From a virus (lineage: Duplodnaviria; Heunggongvirae; Uroviricota; Caudoviricetes), in the IMG/VR virus record IMGVR_UViG_2537561977_000023, positions 1-10,687 of that record: a DNA stretch of 10,687 bases; one strand, 5' to 3'. The position numbers and the translations under genes were made by a program. The notes under the pieces were generated by a model, which saw nothing but the letters and a program-made list of their open reading frames with translations, did not search any database and was not told where the DNA came from. Of the stretch, positions 948 through 9,096 are shown piece after piece. The number at the start of each line of letters is the position of its first letter. The first letter of the stretch is position 1.

Positions 948-1001
948 TGGCCGTTTCCGGCCTGCATGGCATGATTTGCGCTTTTGGACGGGAGATTCAG
1001 C

Positions 1002-1588
1002 GTGCTGATTGGCTATGTAAGGGTATCAACAAATGACCAGAATACAGACCTGCAACGAAACGCTCTTGTTTGTGCAGGATGTGAACAAATATTTGAAGAT
1101 AAATTAAGCGGGACAAAGACAGACCGACCGGGATTAAAACGCGCTTTAAAGCGCCTTCAAAAAGGTGACACGCTGGTTGTCTGGAAACTGGATCGCCTCG
1201 GGCGAAGCATGAAACATCTGATTTCTCTCGTCGGGGAACTACGGGAGCGAGGAATTAATTTTCGCAGTCTGACCGACAGCATAGATACATCTTCTCCAAT
1301 GGGGCGTTTTTCTTCCACGTGATGGGTGCCCTGGCTGAAATGGAACGTGAATTAATTGTTGAACGTACACTGGCCGGACTGGCGGCAGCACGCGCACGGG
1401 GGCGCACAGGCGGACGTCGACCGAAGCTGACAAAAGAACAGCATGAGCAAATAGCAAGGCTGATCAAAAACGGGCACGACAGAAAACAACTGGCAATAAT
1501 TTACGGCATTGGTATATCGACGATTTATCGTTACCACCCCGCAGGAGAATCAATCGGAACAATAGAGAAGAGTCAGGAAACAAAATAA
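1002..1588 (+). pseudogene. Serine DNA invertase, Gin/Pin/Cin/Hin family; reading frame broken by a 1-base deficit in the T5 run at 1307-1311 (may be a sequencing artefact)
   Basis: GTG at 1002 preceded by GGAG (991-994). N-terminus [37 protein letters not shown]... is nearly identical to Gin as recalled, with the catalytic serine motif. ORFs 984..1322 and 1319..1588 are the two halves; adding one T gives ...[19 protein letters not shown]... and a protein of about 195 aa. Confidence 0.85.
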
Positions 1589-2124: not shown

Positions 2125-4966
2125 TCAATCTTTATCGTAAAAACTGCCACGCCCGGCACGGCCGCGCCGTTCCATTTCTGCCCTGACCATTTCACCGACC
2201 AGTTTCGCCAGTTCGCGGGGATTCTGCGTAACAACGTTATGCAGATGAACATGAATTTCACCACCAAATCCGGAGGCAACAGGCTCCCGGTTACGGGAAG
2301 TTACAGGAACTGATGCCACTGGAGAGCGTATGGCCTCCGCCACCGGGCGGGAGCTGGCCGCAACAACAGGGACCAGCGCCGGAGGCAGCGGAGCCGGGAC
2401 CACGGGTGTGATATTAATTGCGGGGGCAGGCTTACTGACCTGCGCAATCTTCCGCTCCTGCCACTCCCCACGAACAGCAAGTGCGCGGGGCAGGTTCTTA
2501 AAGACAATATCGCCGGGGCCAATGCGTTTTTTCGTCTCATCAACCAGCTTACCTGTGTTATCAGCAATTTTGCTGAGTCTGCGTAGCGTCCCGGTATTGC
2601 TGTCTGTGAGCGGTTTGTTGTCTTTGGGTTTATCACCTCCGGTGCCATTGCCATTTTCCACAGGCTTCGGCGGATTGATTTTCGCCAGGTCCCCCTGAAG
2701 CAAGGCAACCTTGTCCTGAAGAATGGCCGCACGCTGTGCGTCTTCGATTTTCTTGCGCGCCCTTTCCGCTTCATCCGGAAGGACGCCAAGTTTTTCAAGT
2801 ATCCACGCCAGCGTATCCAGTAGCATTTTTGCAGGTGTCAGAACAAGTTGTAACGCACCGCCAAGAACGTTACCGAATATCTCGCCAGCACTGGCACATT
2901 TATCCAGCGTTTCCTTGCTGGACTCCATCGGTGACAGCAGCGATTTAAACCAGTTAAAGACCTGAATAATCCCATCGCGCACGACATCAAAAACAGGGCC
3001 AAACCGTTCAAAGGTTTCGCGCAACGGGGTCAGCCTTTCCATAATCCCGCTGAACACCCCGGCAAAAAATGCCCTGATGGGATCCCAGTATTTCCAGATA
3101 AGAACGGCAGCTCCGGCAAGCGCAGCCACGATAAGACTAACCGGACTGAACAGCGCCCCGATAGCGCCACCAAGTAAAGAAACGGAACCCGTCACCATTC
3201 CCCATAATGCAGGCAGAACCCTGACAACATTCATTGATTCGGTCAGGAGAGAAAACCGAGACGCAACGTAGCCAGCTTCCCGTGAAGCACCCCAATAACC
3301 AGAGACAACGAACCAACCGTTGCTGTTGTCGCCAGCAGTGCGCCTCCCGCTATCAGTAACTGGCGCGTCAGTGCCGGGTGGGCCTGCGCCAGCGCCGTCA
3401 CCTTTGAGACAACCCGCGTGAGCCACTGCGTGACAGAACGCAGCGGACCGTCAACCAGATCACTGATGCGAATACGCAGACCTTCCCATGCACTGCCGAG
3501 TGATTTCAGGTTGCCATCAAGGTTATTGGCCATAACCTTTGCCGTGCGTTCTGCCTCACCGCGCGCGCCTTCAAGTTCTTTTCTCAGTTTGGCTAAGAAG
3601 CCGTCACCTGCCGCATCAACGAGGCCCATAAATGATGTGAAAGCCTCTTCTCCGGCAATGTCCTTAAAGAACGATACCCGGTCAACCTCCCCGTATTTGC
3701 GGGTGGCTTTATAGAGATCGGCCAGCACATTCTCCATCGGGCGCATTTTGCCTTTGGCGTCAGCAACTGACACCCCCAGCTCTTTCAGTGCTTCTGCCGC
3801 TGCCTTTGGCGGTGATGACAGATTGGCCAGGCTTTTACGCAACGCTGTACCCGCATCACTCCCCCTGATACCCATCTTCGCCAGCACGCCCGCCATCGCT
3901 GCGGCCTGCTCCAGCGATATTCCCAGCTTACCCGCCACCGGACCTGCATATTTCATGGTTTCGCCCAGTGCGCGAAGGTCAGTGTTGGTACGGGTAAACG
4001 CTGCGGTAAGTGTGTCACCGACCCGGTCCATCTGGTCAGCAGAGAGGCCGAACTGCGTCAGGATATTGGAACCAATATCCGCCGTCTCGCCGAGGTCCAT
4101 ACCGCCAGCCGTTGCCATGCTCAGCACGCCGGGAAGCGCAGCCTGAATGGCCTGCGGTGTGAAACCAGCCATTGCAAGAAATGCCTGTCCACTGGCGGCA
4201 TCGCCTGCGGTGAACTGCGTTTCAGAGCCAAGTTTTAACGCCTGCTCACGCAGCGCCTTAAACTGCGGGCTGTTTTTATCGATTCGCGTCAGTGCCTGAA
4301 CACGGGACATCTCTTTCCCGAACCCGATAGCGGGCTGCAAAAAACGCCCGGCAGCATAGCCGCCCGCTGCCGCCGCACCTGTTGCCAGCGCACCACCTGT
4401 TTTCAGTTTTCCCGCTGTTTCCTGCGCGCGTGAATACCGCTCACGCGCCTGCGTTACACGCGCAAGCGCCCGCCGTTCGCGTTCAAGCTGGTTGTTGTAT
4501 TGTCCGGTGCGTCTGATGGCCTGCTGGATGGTGTTATCGCTGCCTGTCAGGGAATGCCGTGGCGTTTCAGCTCTCCGCCAAGCTCCCGCATTTTCTGAAT
4601 TTCCCGTGTGCGCGATTCATTCAGGCGTTCAAGCCGGATGCTTAACTGCTGCATCAGCTTTTGTTGTTTTTCGCTGAGCACTGTACCCGTGCGTTGTAAC
4701 TGATTAAGGGCGTTAAGCTGGCGTCGTGCTTTCACGATCCCCGCATCCGCTTTACTGACAGCGTCACGGGCGCGCTCAAATGAACGCGCCTGACGCCCGA
4801 GATTTTTGATCGCCCCCTGCGTTCGCTGGATGGAGTCACCAAACTGCCCCATCAGGCGGCGGGCGTTTTCGGCAGGCCGGGTCAGCCTGTCAACGGCGCT
4901 GAAAGCGACCCGGATATCAAGAGTCTTCATTGTCTGCATTCCCGCTGCGAAGTGCCGCCCGCTCAC
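2125..4966 (-). pseudogene. T: Tail tape measure protein (P2 gpT-like), about 940 codons, split over three frames by two 1-base deficits (may be sequencing artefacts)
   Basis: ORFs 4547..4966, 3243..4340 and 2125..3426 are consecutive pieces of one gene. Coiled-coil-like N-terminal part, hydrophobic glycine-rich segments (LLIAGGALLATTATVGSLSLVIGVL; GAIGALFSPVSLIVAALAGAAVLIW) typical of tape measure proteins. Frame restored by adding one base at G3 4550-4552 and at A4 3252-3255 (plus-strand bases). Start uncertain: GTG 4966, ATG 4939 or ATG 4930. Confidence 0.75.
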
Positions 4967-5446
4967 GCCAGCTGACCACTTCGCCGGGCGTCATCATGAA
5001 GATTTCGGCGGGCGACCAGTTAAAAATAACGGCAATATCTGCCACAAAGTCTTCTATGTGCTCAAAGCACACAACCGTGATCAGGCTTCCGTCGCCTGTT
5101 CGTTCTTCCCGCCAGAGTCCGCACCGCTCAAAAAATTTACGGCAACCACACATAACTGAATAAAGTCACGGGATGCCATTTTTTTGATCGTCACTTCATC
5201 CAGTCGCGGTGATGTCACGCGTGACAGCAGCGTAAACATGGATTCCGCTTTCAGATTCAGCACATCAGACAGCGACAAATCTCGCAGAGATCCAGCCTGC
5301 TCAATAGCTCCGGTGATCTCCACATACGTGATTTTTTCGCCGCCTCGCTCAATTGGTTGGGTAAGTTTTACGCCACGCTCACTGGTTTCTTTCACAGTGT
5401 CAGCAACGACCGTGTTTTCGGTATCGATGTTTTTCGTCTCTTTCAT
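4917..5446 (-). CDS. Tail assembly chaperone E+E' fusion made by programmed -1 ribosomal frameshift (P2 E/E' type; analogous to lambda G/GT)
   Basis: The E frame (5446..5081) and the overlapping -1 frame (ORF 4917..5153) are joined at slippery heptamer T TTT TTG (minus strand; plus coordinates 5129-5135). Position immediately upstream of the tape measure gene, as expected. Confidence 0.65.
5081..5446 (-). CDS. E: Tail assembly chaperone E (P2 gpE-like), 121 aa
   Basis: ATG at 5446 with AAGGAG 5 nt upstream; located between the tube and tape measure genes; contains the slippery site near its 3' end. Confidence 0.7.
   Translation of the reverse strand: MKETKNIDTENTVVADTVKETSERGVKLTQPIERGGEKITYVEITGAIEQAGSLRDLSLSDVLNLKAESMFTLLSRVTSPRLDEVTIKKMASRDFIQLCVVAVNFLSGADSGGKNEQATEA
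5129..5135 (-). other. Slippery heptanucleotide T TTT TTG for the E/E' -1 programmed frameshift
   Basis: X XXY YYZ heptamer in the E zero frame (AAT TTT TTG); the -1 frame stays open for 70 further codons to the stop at 4917-4919. Confidence 0.6.
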
Positions 5447-5500
5447 CAGGAAACTCCTTTCAGTCAGAGGCGACGCACTGCGCCGCCTGCATATTACTTA

Positions 5501-6011
5501 TCAGCCAAGCCCGAGCGCGGAACGGATGCGATCGGGCACAATGTCCCTGCCGTCCTTCCGGTAAATGAAGTTCAGCAGGTCAATCTCCCACAACGGGCGA
5601 TCGTTAACACTCAGCTTGTAGTAGGTGTTTTTAATGGCGTAAGTGTGTGATGTGGCTTCGCCCTGTTTGGCTTCCCCCATATCAATTTCCGTCACACGTC
5701 CGCGCATTTCGACTTCATACAGGTCGCTTTCAGCGTCGGTGTAGTATTCACCCGCAAAACGCAGCAGCGTACCGTCAATCGTGCCGCCATACTTCAGGAA
5801 CAACTCACGAACTGCGCCCCCATGACAAAGCTCGCATCAAGCGCGGAGTCGTCCAGGCCGAGATCAATACTTACTGCCCCCATCATGCCACCACCCCGGT
5901 AGCTGTCGGTTTTGCGCGTCAGTTTAGGCAGAGTGACGGACGTCACCTTACCCACTTCGTTTTCACCATCCACAAACAGCGTAAAAAACGAAGATTTTTT
6001 GGTACAGCCAT
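5501..6011 (-). pseudogene. FII: Major tail tube protein (P2 gpFII-like), about 170 codons, interrupted by two 1-base deficits (may be sequencing artefacts)
   Basis: ATG at 6011 overlaps the sheath stop (TGATG) and has GGGAGG upstream. Pieces MAVPK / KSSFFTLFVDGENEVGKVTSVTLPKLTRKTDSYRGGGMMGAVSIDLGLDDSALDASFVMG / GAVRELFLKYGGTIDGTLLRFAGEYY...SALGLG. Frame restored by adding one base to T6 5995-6000 and to C5 5817-5821 (plus-strand runs). Confidence 0.7.
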
Positions 6012-7194
6012 CAGACACCTCCCAGCACCGCAAATGCGGGACCAAAGAATTCATCAGTAAACGTCTGGTAAAGCTCCATATCTTCCAGTGGCGGAACGGG
6101 CGTATATTTGTAGCGAATACGCACGCGCCCCTGACGTAAATCCGTGGTGCCGTTATCCACCACGTCATACCAGCACGACGCCCCAATCAGTTTCCCGGCA
6201 GTCACCAGTGAATCCAGTTTTGCCCTGATGGCACTGATAACATCCTTCACGTTCGCAGGCGTCAGTGGACTGTCGATGGTTTCAAACTGCGCTTCCGCAA
6301 TTGAATCAGCCAGCACCTGTGCGGTTCGGGTATACACCTCAAAGATGTAGGCGTTCGTTTCCGGTGTGCGGTTGCCCCAGAAGCGGAACCCGTTACGACG
6401 AATAATGGTCGTGATTTCTTTGTTGTTGAGGCTGTTGGCATCACTGTCTTCGGCCTGTAACGACCAGAACACATGCCTCGACATCCCCAGCACATTTTTA
6501 ACCGGAACGTTGGACAGTGATTTGTGCCATCCCTGCTCATGGTCAATGTACGCACGAAGGCCGCACGCACAGGCAGGCGCGGGGAACGTTTCGTTTTTGC
6601 CACTTTTCGGGTTCCAGGCGATGAAGTCCGGCCATAAGAGCATCACCTCACGTTCGTTGAATTTCTGGCGGTAGGTAATCGCCTCAGCCATCGTGTTACA
6701 GCCATGACATGAGGCATACACAAACGCGCGCAGTTTACCTGCAATCACGCACAGGGATTTTGCACCGCCTCCGTGTCCAGCTCCGGCGCGGCCAGAATAC
6801 GCGGACGGTATCCGATGCTTTCATCCTGCTCTGCAACAAGCAGCGCATACATCCCCGTATAGCTGCCGTCATCCTCAGAACCACCGATAACCAGTTGATC
6901 CTGCGTCTTTCCGTCTTCTTCTTTGTGTTCAGCCACGCGAACGACGATCACCTTTGTGCTCACCTGGTCTGCGATGGCCTTAAGCGCACGATAAAGCGTC
7001 CCCGTTGTCCCGCATTTTCCCAGCACGTCATTGACGCGGGTCAGCAGTGTGGGCTTGTTCAGCGGGAACAGCTTCGCGTCCGCATCATCCGCCGTTGCCA
7101 CGATACCGATAACGCTGGAATCAACATCGTTAATCGCTGTTACCAGGTCGGTATTTTCCGTAACACGGGCACCATGAAAACGAGTTTCACTCAT
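6011..7194 (-). pseudogene. FI: Tail sheath protein (P2 gpFI-like), about 394 codons, interrupted by one 1-base deficit (may be a sequencing artefact)
   Basis: ORFs 6745..7194 (N-terminal) and 6011..6748 (C-terminal) are one gene. Motifs ILAAPELDTEAVQ, GFRFWGNRT, YTRTAQV and YTPVPPLE match P2 sheath as recalled. ATG at 7194 with AAGGGG upstream. Frame restored by adding one base to T4 6758-6761 (plus strand). Confidence 0.8.
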
Positions 7195-7351
7195 AGCTTC
7201 AGCCCCTTGTATCCGTTAAATGATTCGGCAACAATCATCACCCACCACGCGCGTAATCTCACCCCTGCGCCGTTCTCCCGCCACGGCGACAACGAAAAGC
7301 AGTAACCCCCTCCGCACGCACATGCGACCATGCCGCACAGGGAGGGAGCAG

Positions 7352-8461
7352 ATGACCGACACCACCATGCAATTGCTCAGTCAGAGCACAGCCCCCGTGA
7401 AAATGCCGGATTTTGATATTCTCGCGGAGGGTAAAACGCTGTCCGGCGTGGCAGAGCGCCTGATGAGCCTGTCGCTGACCGACAACCGGGGATTTGAAGC
7501 GGACCAGCTCACCATCACGCTGGATGATGCGGATGGTCAGTTGCAGCTACCACCACGGGGCGCGCGCCTGACGGTTCTCATTGGCTGGAAAGGAGAACCA
7601 CTGACAGAAAAAGGCACTTATATTGTTGATGAAATCGCTCACGAAGGACCGCCGGACAGGCTGACTGTTTCAGCCAGAAGCGCAGATTTTCGGGATGAAT
7701 TTAACGTTAAACGTGAGGTGTCCTGGCATGATGTGACCGTTGAGCGTGTGGTATCCGCCATCGCTCACCGGTACGGTCTGAAACCGCAAATCAGCGAAAT
7801 GCTGATGGATATTGAAATCGACCACGCCGACCAGACCGAAGAAAGCGACATGTCCTTCCTTACGCGCATGGCGGAAATGCTGGGCGCAATCACTACGGTA
7901 AAAAGCGGTAATCTGTTATTCATCATGCCAGGCGGTGGCGTGAACGCACAGGGCCAGCCGTTGCCCTCGTTCGCCATCACGCGCAGCAGTGGCGATCGCC
8001 ATCAGTTCCGCATTGCTGACCGCGAAGCGTATACGGGGGTACGCGCTTACTGGCTTGATCTTAATTACGGGAAAAAGAAAAAAGTCAGCGTGAAACGCCG
8101 CAAACCGCCCAAGCCCAAAAAGGAGAAAAGCAGCAGCCGTGAAGGTGATTATATGGAAGGCGCGGAAGGCAATGTGTTTGTGTTACGCAAGACTTATCAG
8201 AACGAGCAGGCAGCAAGACGCGCAGCGGCGGCAAAGTGGCAGCAGCTACAACGCGGAGCCGCATCATTCTCCATCACGCTGGCGCGTGGACGTGCAGAAC
8301 TCTACCCCGAAATGCATGGCACGGTAACAGGATTTAAAAGCGAGATTGATAATCAGGACTGGATCATTGCAAAAGCCGGGCACACCATTGATAACAGCGG
8401 CTTTACCACACAGCTTGAGCTTGAGGCAAAAATCCCGGAATGGATAGCAGAAACAGAGTGA
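7352..8461 (+). CDS. D: P2 gpD-like tail protein (phage late control D family), 369 aa
   Basis: ATG at 7352 preceded by GGAGGGAG (7341-7348). The track's 7220 start adds a low-complexity N-terminal extension with no RBS and overlaps the FI promoter region, so 7352 is preferred. Confidence 0.75.
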   Translation: MTDTTMQLLSQSTAPVKMPDFDILAEGKTLSGVAERLMSLSLTDNRGFEADQLTITLDDADGQLQLPPRGARLTVLIGWKGEPLTEKGTYIVDEIAHEGPPDRLTVSARSADFRDEFNVKREVSWHDVTVERVVSAIAHRYGLKPQISEMLMDIEIDHADQTEESDMSFLTRMAEMLGAITTVKSGNLLFIMPGGGVNAQGQPLPSFAITRSSGDRHQFRIADREAYTGVRAYWLDLNYGKKKKVSVKRRKPPKPKKEKSSSREGDYMEGAEGNVFVLRKTYQNEQAARRAAAAKWQQLQRGAASFSITLARGRAELYPEMHGTVTGFKSEIDNQDWIIAKAGHTIDNSGFTTQLELEAKIPEWIAETE

Positions 8462-8503
8462 GCAACTTAGAATAGCGGCAACACCACGTTAAGGGAGGTC
8501 GCT

Positions 8504-8764
8504 ATGTTCCGTTGTCCGCTTTGTGGCGCATCTGCCCGTATCCGCACCAGTCGTCCGGAAAATGATTCAAACACCGTGCGGCAAAAGTATTACCAGTGTA
8601 ACAACCTGGAATGCGGCGTATGCTTCTCAACACTGGAAGCTTTCCATAAATTCACATCAAAACACGCCTCCGGCGTTCACTCTTCAGAAGGTATCCCGTG
8701 GCATGAACTGCCAGCTTCACACAGGGGAAACAATCAGATGAGTTTGCCTTTACCTCAGAATTAA
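8504..8764 (+). CDS. ogr: Ogr/Delta-family zinc-finger late-gene transcriptional activator, 86 aa
   Basis: MFRCPLCGASARIRTSR...YYQCNNLECGVCF has the CxxC...CxxxxC zinc-binding pattern and close similarity to P2 Ogr as recalled (MFHCPLC...HQCQNVNC). ATG at 8504 with AGGGAGG 5 nt upstream. Sits after D, as in P2. Confidence 0.8.
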   Translation: MFRCPLCGASARIRTSRPENDSNTVRQKYYQCNNLECGVCFSTLEAFHKFTSKHASGVHSSEGIPWHELPASHRGNNQMSLPLPQN

Positions 8765-8852
8765 CAGGCAGAATTGCCGGAGTAACAAAAAAGCGATAGA
8801 TTACGTGCGGGTGCCTTTCGGCTGATGGTCGGAGGGAATACCCGAAGGCCAG

Positions 8853-9089
8853 ATGTGGAAAGGCCCCGGAAAACATTTTTGTTTAACCGAGGCCCTAACA
8901 CTTCTTACCTTCGCAAGTAGAAGGTTAGCGCCTCTCCTCTCAGGAGACAAGCGTTATGACGCAAATTCCGTTAAAAACCCTGTTACTTTGCATAACTGCG
9001 GTAGCGATAATCTGGATCCTCCACACATCACCGTGCGAGTTACGATTCAGGTTTGCTGGCACGGAAATTGCGGCATTCTTACTATGTAA
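8853..9089 (+). CDS. mok-like overlapping reading frame of the hok locus (translational coupling frame), 78 aa
   Basis: ORF begins 103 nt upstream of the hok ATG and ends 7 nt before the hok stop in another frame, the arrangement known for mok/hok. Its own sequence is not distinctive. Confidence 0.4.
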   Translation: MWKGPGKHFCLTEALTLLTFASRRLAPLLSGDKRYDANSVKNPVTLHNCGSDNLDPPHITVRVTIQVCWHGNCGILTM

Positions 9090-9096
9090 TAAGTAA
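8956..9096 (+). CDS. Hok/Gef-family type I toxin (small membrane peptide), 46 aa; absent from ORF track
   Basis: Translation MTQIPLKTLLLCITAVAIIWILHTSPCELRFRFAGTEIAAFLLCNK: N-terminal hydrophobic helix followed by the conserved C-E-L-R-F-R ... E-(V/I)-A-A-F core seen in Hok, HokB and Gef as recalled. AGGAG at 8942-8946, 9 nt before the ATG. Confidence 0.75.
   Translation: MTQIPLKTLLLCITAVAIIWILHTSPCELRFRFAGTEIAAFLLCNK

What the first reader, a model, noticed from the sequence alone, without database searches (positions are those of the whole stretch)
4917..5446. Conserved programmed -1 frameshift (E/E') upstream of the tape measure gene
E (121 aa) contains the heptamer T TTT TTG (plus coordinates 5129-5135) near its 3' end. 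The -1 frame stays open for 70 codons and overlaps the start of T, giving a predicted E+E' fusion of about 176 aa. This matches the tail assembly chaperone frameshift known for P2 E/E' and lambda G/GT. It is a true recoding site, distinct from the homopolymer lesions. Both products are longer than I recall for P2.
Basis: partly seen in the sequence, partly recalled or inferred. Interest (0 to 1): 0.45.

Follow-up and report, generated by a model that had tools for sequence, protein, structure and literature searches.

The report
P2-type tail chaperone frameshift site
This is the well-known ribosomal slip site that lets P2-like phages make a short and a long tail-assembly chaperone from one gene start; here it lies intact in a common E. 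coli prophage whose neighbouring tail genes are broken, so it is real but ordinary.

Summary
E is 5446..5081 (121 aa). T_TTT_TTG is at 5135..5129 in the X_XXY_YYZ phase. The -1 frame then runs 70 codons to TGA 4919..4917, giving a 176-aa fusion that overlaps the tape-measure ATG (4930) by 14 nt.

The fusion aligns with P2 E+E' across the junction (31% identity, E 2e-26). Its -1-frame part matches Pfam Phage_P2_GpE.

An in-phase slippery heptamer sits at the homologous position in 89 of 94 distinct related loci. Variable sites switch from third positions of frame 0 to third positions of frame -1 exactly at the slip site. No conserved start codon exists for E'. The interpretation, a programmed -1 frameshift of the P2 E/E' type, is therefore supported.

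Two refinements:
- The site is an overlapping double heptamer, A_AAT_TTT_TTG (5138..5129). A sister allele in about 600 E. coli genomes keeps only A_AAT_TTT, and another lineage keeps only T_TTT_TTG.
- The window's tube, sheath and tape-measure genes carry five 1-nt deletions, so the site may be idle in this genome.

Public records split E' into a separate 51- or 78-aa ORF. This is already known biology, and interest is low.

The parts
5081..5446 (-). Gene E, the frame-0 product: 121-aa tail assembly chaperone homologue, stop TGA 5083..5081
   Evidence: ORF and translation. PHROG 103 'tail protein', E 3e-35. Pfam PF10109 Phage_TAC_7 only 17.2 bits, below the 25-bit cut-off. The exact protein is seen on at least 1000 public contigs. 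Annotated 'tail protein' in relatives.
5454..5459 (-). Shine-Dalgarno sequence AAGGAG, 7 nt upstream of the E start codon
   Evidence: Read directly from the sequence.
5129..5138 (-). Slippery decamer A_AAT_TTT_TTG. It holds two overlapping in-phase heptamers: A_AAT_TTT (5138..5132) and T_TTT_TTG (5135..5129).
   Evidence: These are the only two in-phase X_XXY_YYZ heptamers in the whole E gene. The decamer is unique in the window, 0.05 expected. T_TTT_TTG lies at the column homologous to the P2 site.
5166..5168 (-). Last -1-frame stop (TGA) upstream of the slip site. It marks the 5' limit of the window in which a -1 shift can reach E'.
5084..5128 (-). Dual-frame overlap between the slip site and the E stop (45 nt). 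Sequence variation here follows the -1 frame, not frame 0.
   Evidence: Variable columns by frame-0 codon position 1/2/3 are 3/10/4 of 15 each. Upstream of the slip site they are 26/17/49. Chi-square p = 0.0018, Fisher p = 0.0011.
4917..5129 (-). E' segment in the -1 frame: 70 sense codons plus TGA 4919..4917. Joined to E residues 1-106 it gives the 176-aa E+E' fusion.
   Evidence: PHROG 1756, E 1e-39. Annotated in public records as a separate 51-aa (GTG start) or 78-aa (ATG start) 'GpE family phage tail protein'.
4938..5045 (-). Conserved E' domain (fusion residues 135-170), matching Pfam PF06528 Phage_P2_GpE
   Evidence: E 6e-12, 45.3 bits against a cut-off of 23. It holds the conserved ADIAVIFNW...WRE motif of the family alignment.
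4928..4930 (-). ATG of the tape-measure gene T, overlapping the end of E' by 14 nt
   Evidence: Relatives annotate a 2808-nt tape-measure gene starting at this position.
2125..4930 (-). Tape-measure gene T, split here into three ORFs by 1-nt deletions near 3252-3256 and 4553-4555
   Evidence: ORF list. Alignments to the intact relatives L001 and L003.
5501..6021 (-). Tail tube gene (FII homologue) immediately upstream of E, split here by 1-nt deletions near 5816-5822 and 5989. Bounds are approximate, transferred from relatives.
   Evidence: Annotated 'phage major tail tube protein' in relatives.

Best explanation
The region encodes the tail assembly chaperone pair of a P2-like (P88-like, Xuanwuvirus) prophage inserted next to serS.

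Most ribosomes translate E from ATG 5446 to TGA 5081 and make a 121-aa protein. A minority slip back one nucleotide on the U-rich decamer A_AAU_UUU_UUG (5138..5129). They continue in the -1 frame for 70 codons and make a 176-aa E+E' fusion that ends 14 nt inside the tape-measure gene.

Shown here:
- the geometry of the two frames and the slip site;
- homology to P2 E+E';
- conservation of a slippery heptamer at this column;
- the switch of purifying selection to the -1 frame at the slip site;
- the absence of a conserved start for E'.

Inferred from P2 and lambda work:
- the slip is ribosomal;
- it happens at a low, fixed rate without a strong RNA stimulator;
- the shared E part binds the tape measure, and the E' part recruits the tube protein during tail assembly.

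Which heptamer is used in this allele is unknown. A slip at A_AAU_UUU, or a P-site-only slip on U_UUU, gives ...N-F-F-E.... A tandem slip at U_UUU_UUG gives ...N-F-L-E.... Both products are 176 aa.
For: Geometry.

Homology: BLASTP of the fusion against P2 E+E' gives 31% identity over 150 aa, E 2e-26, with the junctions aligned. PF06528 is found in the -1 frame. PHROGs 103 and 1756 match.

Synteny: tube, E, E', tape measure and U follow in the same order in annotated relatives and in P2. The P2 record annotates the -1 frameshift at the same heptamer.

Conservation across 94 distinct loci:
- T_TTT_TTG alone in 38;
- A_AAT_TTT plus T_TTT_TTG in 12;
- A_AAT_TTT alone in 10;
- C_CCT_TTC in 15;
- C_CCT_TTT plus T_TTT_TTG in 5;
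- T_TTT_TTA, T_TTT_TTT or T_TTT_TTC in 7;
- G_GGA_AAG in 1.

In L039 and in phage SEN4 the -1 frame opens exactly at the heptamer.

The codon-position switch is at the slip site. There is no conserved start codon or Shine-Dalgarno sequence for E'; three lineages have no ATG, GTG or TTG at all before the conserved domain. No promoter-like site lies in 4800-5600.

Literature: P2 shifts at TTTTTTG, giving E of 91 aa and E+E' of 142 aa, with no hairpin (PMC3091744). Lambda G:GT is about 30:1 and P2 is 2-3 fold higher (PMC5009743). UUY A-site codons and R_RRU_UUY motifs are shift-prone in E. coli (PMC4066793).
Against: - No protein or ribosome data exist for this allele.
- U_UUU_UUG and A_AAU_UUU are near background in E. 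coli reporters without a stimulator, at 0.118% and 0.070%.
- I find no stimulator. The downstream fold has z = -1.5, the consensus structure is -2 kcal/mol, and there is no Rfam match.
- The E part misses the Pfam PF10109 cut-off, and no NCBIfam model matches.
- In this window the tube, sheath and tape-measure genes are frameshifted, so the site may not be doing anything in this genome.
Confidence: 0.9

Rival explanations
1. E' is an independent small gene, as public annotation has it: a 51-aa ORF from GTG 5072, or a 78-aa ORF from ATG 5153. It is translated from its own start and no recoding occurs.
For: PGAP and GenBank records annotate a separate 'GpE family phage tail protein'. Both separate ORFs are on record in public protein collections, while neither 176-aa fusion is.
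Against: - Neither start is conserved. The ATG is GTG in the sister allele. It is absent in L039, where a TAA stop abuts the heptamer. L044, L008 and L009 have no start codon before the conserved domain.
- No Shine-Dalgarno-like sequence precedes either start.
- Selection on the -1 frame begins at the slip site, 57 nt upstream of the GTG.
- In P2 the homologous E' is annotated as made only by frameshift (PMC3091744).
Confidence: 0.03
2. The frame change is made by RNA polymerase slipping on the T6 run (transcriptional slippage), not by the ribosome.
For: The site is a homopolymer run. Close relatives of another lineage differ only in run length, T6, T7 and T8, which shows the run is slippage-prone at some level, in replication or in sequencing.
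Against: T6 is shorter than the runs of about 8-9 known to give productive slippage in E. coli (own knowledge). Homologues keep an X_XXY_YYZ heptamer with only T4 (AAATTTTATG, exact 55-nt context in 526 complete E. coli genome records) or T3 (CCCTTTC) at the same column. That conserved phasing fits tRNA re-pairing, not polymerase slippage.
Confidence: 0.04
3. The recoding signal is an intact relic. The prophage in this genome is defective, so E and E+E' are either not made or have no tail to assemble.
For: There are five 1-nt deletions relative to two intact relatives: two in the tape-measure gene, two in the tube gene and one in the sheath gene. Each splits its ORF. The neighbouring recombinase ORF is also split.
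Against: E/E' itself has no indel and is 99.9% identical to copies in genomes with intact tail genes. Several of the lesions lie in or beside short homopolymers, so sequencing error is not excluded. This rival concerns present-day use, not the mechanism the sequence encodes.
Confidence: 0.5

Closest known systems
Bacteriophage P2 gpE / gpE+E' (FETUD tail operon; Christie et al. 2002, as cited in PMC3091744 and PMC5009743)
   Same: The protein is homologous across the junction. T_TTT_TTG lies at the same column, flanked by the same F-L-S codons. The gene pair sits between the tube and tape-measure genes, and E' ends inside the tape-measure gene. No downstream hairpin is found (PMC3091744).
   Different: - The products are longer: 121 and 176 aa against 91 and 142 aa. 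The extra length comes from an N-terminal extension of about 20 aa, a 10-aa insertion just after the junction and 2 more C-terminal residues.
- The slip site lies 45 nt before the E stop, not 18 nt.
- An extra overlapping heptamer, A_AAT_TTT, is present.
- The overlap with T is 14 nt, not 8 nt.
- D and ogr are on the opposite strand.
Sister allele of the same prophage family (Citrobacter phage Shae_phiSM, Escherichia phages 503458 and 520873, Xuanwuvirus P884B11)
   Same: About 85-88% nucleotide identity, the same gene order and the same -1-frame protein.
   Different: The site reads GTA AAT TTT ATG, so only A_AAT_TTT remains and T_TTT_TTG is lost. A 55-nt query around this site matches 599 complete E. 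coli genomes (526 records exactly). The window-type query matches 820 genomes (729 records exactly).
Phage lambda gpG / gpGT tail assembly chaperones (Levin 1993; Xu, Hendrix and Duda 2004, 2013, 2014, as reviewed in PMC5009743)
   Same: Both have two overlapping ORFs between the major tail gene and the tape-measure gene, joined by a low-level -1 shift on a heptamer. Neither product is in the virion.
   Different: Lambda uses G_GGA_AAG and has a non-contractile tail. I did not test sequence homology to lambda G/T. P2-type efficiency is reported as 2-3 fold higher.
Phage 186 gene H (orf51/orf52)
   Same: T_TTT_TTG at the same column. E is 111 aa and the fusion is 162 aa. The record states 'probably produced by a translational frameshift'.
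   Different: Only about 30% protein identity to the window's fusion, and a single heptamer.

Membership tests
P2 gpE / gpE+E' tail assembly chaperone pair | The fused frame-0 plus frame -1 product is homologous to P2 E+E' across the junction | tested here: met
   BLASTP gives 31% identity over 150 aa, E 2e-26, with NFF aligned to GFF. A 13-sequence alignment has the FF column in 12 of 13.
P2 gpE / gpE+E' tail assembly chaperone pair | The -1-frame part carries the Pfam PF06528 Phage_P2_GpE domain above the gathering score | tested here: met
   45.3 bits against a cut-off of 23, E 6e-12, fusion residues 135-170.
P2 gpE / gpE+E' tail assembly chaperone pair | The frame-0 part belongs to Pfam PF10109 Phage_TAC_7 above the gathering score | tested here: inconclusive
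   17.2 bits against a cut-off of 25, E 0.005, but the match covers profile positions 2-78 of 79. PHROG 103 matches at 3e-35. No NCBIfam model matches.
P2 gpE / gpE+E' tail assembly chaperone pair | An in-phase slippery heptamer (T_TTT_TTG in P2) near the 3' end of E, at the homologous column | tested here: met
   T_TTT_TTG at 5135..5129. An in-phase heptamer is present in 89 of 94 distinct loci.
P2 gpE / gpE+E' tail assembly chaperone pair | Located between the tail tube gene (FII) and the tape-measure gene (T), with E' ending at or inside the T start | tested here: met
   Annotated relatives and P2. The overlap here is 14 nt.
P2 gpE / gpE+E' tail assembly chaperone pair | Both E and E+E' proteins are made, and both are needed for tail assembly | not testable with these tools
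   Needs protein detection and genetics. Known only for P2 (PMC3091744; PMC5009743).
Conserved tail-assembly-chaperone frameshift of long-tailed phages (lambda G/GT class) | The second ORF lacks its own initiation signals and is under selection from the slip site onward | tested here: met
   No conserved start codon or Shine-Dalgarno sequence. The codon-position switch is at the slip site.
Conserved tail-assembly-chaperone frameshift of long-tailed phages (lambda G/GT class) | A low, fixed ratio of long to short product | not testable with these tools
   Needs a reporter assay or quantitative proteomics.
Conserved tail-assembly-chaperone frameshift of long-tailed phages (lambda G/GT class) | Sequence homology to lambda gpG/gpT | not tested
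   I treat lambda as a functional analogue only.
Transcriptional slippage site | A homopolymer run long enough for RNA polymerase slippage (about 8-9 or more A/T), conserved as a run | tested here: not met
   The run is T6 here. Homologues have T4 or T3 at the same column while keeping X_XXY_YYZ phasing.
Stimulated -1 frameshift signals (dnaX / IS3 type) | A conserved downstream hairpin or pseudoknot 5-9 nt after the heptamer | tested here: not met
   Fold z-score -1.5, with 12 of 200 shuffles folding as well. The RNAalifold consensus is -2 kcal/mol, with no helix in the right place. No Rfam family matches.

The most novel reading that the evidence does not exclude
The window's allele carries a tandem, overlapping double slip site, A_AAU_UUU_UUG, on which ribosomes can shift at either of two successive codon pairs. 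Sister lineages keep only the upstream half (A_AAU_UUU) or only the downstream half (U_UUU_UUG). The slip site would thus have moved by one codon during evolution through a double-site intermediate. The double site might also set a different E to E+E' ratio than either single site.
Probability: 0.35. Interest if true: 0.3.

Novelty: already known. Interest (0 to 1): 0.15.

Why it matters
It matters mainly for annotation. Every public record I looked at for this prophage family calls E' as a free-standing 51- or 78-aa gene. The 176-aa fusion is absent from a collection of about 15 billion proteins, although the locus occurs in about a quarter of complete E. coli genomes (1370 of 5426).

Biologically it is one more instance of the conserved tail-chaperone frameshift. 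The one mildly useful point is the natural allelic series at a single homologous site: A_AAT_TTT_TTG, A_AAT_TTT only, T_TTT_TTG only, and C_CCT_TTC. This would be a ready-made set for testing how heptamer identity sets the chaperone ratio. It could also address why U_UUU_UUG, a weak motif in reporter assays, is the commonest choice in P2-type phages.

Tried and rejected
The viral-contig scan with an alignment was far more useful.
- My motif-based mapping script failed on 5 of 94 loci. Inspection showed a wrong motif hit (L012, L096) or contigs with indels or altered T-run length (L019, L024, L041). None is a real exception to conservation.
- The Christie 2002 paper is not held, by DOI or by PMC id. 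P2 facts are taken from papers that cite it.
- There was no NCBIfam match, no PDB relative by profile search and no Rfam family. No paper on a P88 or Xuanwuvirus frameshift was found.
- I looked for a downstream stimulatory structure in the single sequence and by covariation. None was found.
- I considered a slip at the A7 run (5186-5192). It is rejected because the run is not in X_XXY_YYZ phase and the -1 frame hits TGA after six codons.
- I considered that T6 might be a miscalled T7, given the lesions elsewhere. It is rejected because all 12 distinct relatives of the window's own allele read T6 and the exact 121-aa E occurs on at least 1000 contigs.
- I did not run structure prediction.
Full report
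**What is in the sequence**

The genes of this part of the window run on the minus strand.
- E is the ORF 5446..5081, 121 aa. A strong AAGGAG lies 7 nt before its ATG.
It is phased AAT TTT TTG (N104 F105 L106), the X_XXY_YYZ arrangement.
- The -1 frame is closed by TGA at 5168..5166 and then stays open to TGA 4919..4917.
- Counting from the last base of the heptamer gives 70 sense codons and a 176-aa fusion.
- The tape-measure ATG is at 4930, so E' overlaps T by 14 nt.

Every number in the finding is therefore correct. One thing was missed: a second in-phase heptamer, A_AAT_TTT (5138..5132), overlaps the first, so the site is really the decamer A_AAT_TTT_TTG. These two are the only in-phase heptamers in the whole E gene.

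**Is it more than chance?**

The motif alone is not.
- TTTTTTG occurs six times in the window against 3.5 expected.
- About 10% of codon shuffles of E put at least one in-phase heptamer in the 28-codon window where a -1 shift can reach E'. Only 1.3% put two there.
- The decamer occurs once against 0.05 expected.

The case rests on the homology and comparative evidence below.

**Where the window comes from**

The window is the serS-proximal end of a P2-like prophage of the P88 / Xuanwuvirus type (Peduoviridae).
- The 671 bases around the finding are 98.7-99.3% identical to Escherichia phages 500465-2, PhiR44_2 and P88.
- They occur in 1370 of 5426 complete E. coli genomes.
- serS at the window's end is 99.5-99.8% identical to E. 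coli.
- Annotated relatives show the order sheath, tube, 'tail protein' (121 aa), 'GpE family phage tail protein' (51 aa), tape measure, and a further 'phage tail protein' in the position of P2 gene U.
- No record annotates ribosomal slippage here.
- An exact look-up finds the 121-aa E on at least 1000 contigs and the 51-aa and 78-aa free-standing E' ORFs on hundreds. It finds neither version of the 176-aa fusion.

**Homology to P2**

- The P2 record annotates E (91 aa), E+E' (142 aa) and a -1 frameshift at TTTTTTG. PMC3091744 says the same.
- The window's fusion aligns with P2 E+E' over 150 residues (31% identity, E 2e-26), with the junctions in register: NFF against GFF.
- The -1-frame part matches Pfam PF06528 Phage_P2_GpE well above its cut-off.
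- The frame-0 part matches PF10109 Phage_TAC_7 along its whole length but below the cut-off (17.2 against 25 bits). It matches PHROG 103 at 3e-35.
- The extra length relative to P2 comes from an N-terminal extension of about 20 aa, a 10-aa insertion just after the junction and two C-terminal residues.
- Across the family E ranges from 91 to 130 aa and the fusion from 142 to 182 aa. The sizes here are long but within range.

**Conservation of the slip site**

I collected annotated phage records and 80 viral contigs, and scored 94 distinct E/E' sequences. An in-phase X_XXY_YYZ heptamer lies at the homologous position in 89:

| Heptamer(s) at the site | Distinct loci |
|---|---|
| T_TTT_TTG alone | 38 |
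| A_AAT_TTT plus T_TTT_TTG (the window's clade) | 12 |
| A_AAT_TTT alone | 10 |
| C_CCT_TTC | 15 |
| C_CCT_TTT plus T_TTT_TTG | 5 |
| T_TTT_TTA, T_TTT_TTT or T_TTT_TTC | 7 |
| G_GGG_GGT plus T_TTT_TTG | 1 |
| G_GGA_AAG (Mannheimia, further downstream) | 1 |

The five failures were script errors or contigs with indels.

Three close lineages are informative.
- The window's allele has both heptamers.
- A sister allele at about 87% nucleotide identity reads GTA AAT TTT ATG and keeps only A_AAT_TTT.
- L039 (76% identity) reads GTT AAT TTT TTG and keeps only T_TTT_TTG. Its -1-frame TAA stop abuts the heptamer, so the shift can occur nowhere else.

A 55-nt query centred on the site matches 820 complete E. 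coli genomes for the window allele (729 records exactly). It matches 599 for the sister allele (526 records exactly).

**Which frame is under selection?**

Among 17 distinct close sequences, I counted variable columns by frame-0 codon position.

| Region | Position 1 | Position 2 | Position 3 | Reading |
|---|---|---|---|---|
| Upstream of the slip site | 26 | 17 | 49 | frame-0 coding |
| 45-nt overlap, slip site to E stop | 3 | 10 | 4 | frame -1 coding |
| E'-only part | 4 | 20 | 9 | frame -1 coding |

Frame-0 position 2 is frame -1 position 3. The overlap differs from the upstream region (chi-square p = 0.0018, Fisher p = 0.0011). It is indistinguishable from the E'-only part (p = 0.86).

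The -1-frame peptide is conserved: ERCGLWREERTGDGS, ERARLWREERAGDGS and GRSGLWREERGGDGR. The frame-0 tail is not: LSGADSGGKNEQATEA, MSEPDSGAKSVQETAA and LAGQDSGGKSGAATAG.

Translation of the -1 frame therefore starts at the slip site, 57 nt upstream of the GTG that PGAP uses as the start of the 51-aa ORF.

**Rivals**

*Independent initiation of E'.* This is contradicted by the result above and by the lack of any conserved start codon or Shine-Dalgarno sequence. Three lineages have no ATG, GTG or TTG at all before the conserved domain. No promoter-like site lies in the region.

*Transcriptional slippage.* This is unlikely. The run is only T6, and homologues with T4 or T3 still keep the heptamer phasing.

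*A dnaX- or IS3-type stimulated signal.* This is not supported. The downstream fold is no better than shuffles (z = -1.5), there is no conserved structure and there is no Rfam match. This agrees with what is reported for P2.

**Mechanism and its open point**

By homology with P2 and analogy with lambda (PMC5009743), I infer the following, without having shown it:
- E and E+E' share the part that binds the tape measure;
- the E' extension recruits the tube protein;
- neither protein ends up in the virion;
- their ratio is fixed by the slip frequency.

Reporter data for E. coli (PMC4066793, Table S3):

| Motif | No stimulator | IS911 stimulators | IS3 pseudoknot |
|---|---|---|---|
| U_UUU_UUG | 0.118% | 0.247% | 0.765% |
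| A_AAU_UUU | 0.070% | 0.355% | 11.4% |
| C_CCU_UUC | 0.193% | 1.39% | 23.2% |

The family's favourite heptamer is thus intrinsically weak, and no stimulator is visible. Yet P2 is said to shift 2-3 fold more than lambda. I cannot explain this. Slow decoding of UUG by minor tRNA-Leu species is one idea, from my own knowledge and untested.

I also cannot say which half of the decamer is used here. The two possibilities differ by one residue (F or L at position 106), and mass spectrometry would separate them.

**Context caveat**

Relative to two intact relatives, the window has five 1-nt deletions. Two are in the tape-measure gene, two in the tube gene and one in the sheath gene. Each splits its ORF. 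E/E' has none.

Either the prophage is decaying, and the recoding signal is an intact relic, or the sequence has errors. The T6 run itself is genuine: all 12 distinct relatives of the window's own allele share it, and the exact E protein is very common.

**Verdict**

This is the known, conserved P2-type E/E' programmed -1 frameshift in a very common E. coli prophage family.

The only additions are the overlapping double heptamer with its single-heptamer sister alleles, and the fact that public annotation never joins the two frames. Interest is low.

Noticed in passing
window about 3252-3256, 4553-4555, 5816-5822, 5989, 6763: Five single-base deletions relative to two intact relatives split the tape-measure gene into three ORFs and the tube and sheath genes into two each. 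Some lie in short homopolymers (A4 against A5, C5 against C6), others do not. This is either a decaying prophage or sequencing error.
   Followed up: partly
L040:941, L024:941, L041:941: Three closely related viral contigs differ at the slip site only in T-run length. CC-T6 is the normal -1 arrangement, T7 fuses E and E' in one frame, and T8 puts E' in the +1 frame. This could be real run-length variation or homopolymer miscalls.
   Followed up: partly
window 984-1588 (+): An invertase-like recombinase gene next to the tail fibre genes is split into two ORFs (984-1322 and 1319-1588). The homologue in E. coli WS1933D is also annotated as frameshifted.
   Followed up: no
L006 (NZ_JBQPOM010000071.1): A contig titled Vagococcus sp. 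WN89Y carries an E/E' locus 95% identical to this enterobacterial prophage. The likely cause is contamination or misassignment of the assembly.
   Followed up: no
window 7220-9096 (+): The D-like (VgrG/Pvc8 family), ogr-like (8504-8764) and hok/gef-like (8956-9096) genes lie on the strand opposite to sheath-tube-E-T-U, unlike the co-directional FETUD-ogr order of P2. No Sok or other Rfam RNA reached its threshold.
   Followed up: no
window 5186-5192 (-): There is an A7 run inside E (ATC AAA AAA ATG). It is not in heptamer phase, and a -1 slip there would stop at TGA 5168-5166 after six codons. In L006 the corresponding run is in phase and the -1 frame is open from there.
   Followed up: partly
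window 4917-5153 and homologous loci in public records: Public annotation of this prophage family calls E' as a separate 51-aa (GTG) or 78-aa (ATG) 'GpE family phage tail protein'. Neither 176-aa fusion is present among about 15 billion public proteins.
   Followed up: yes
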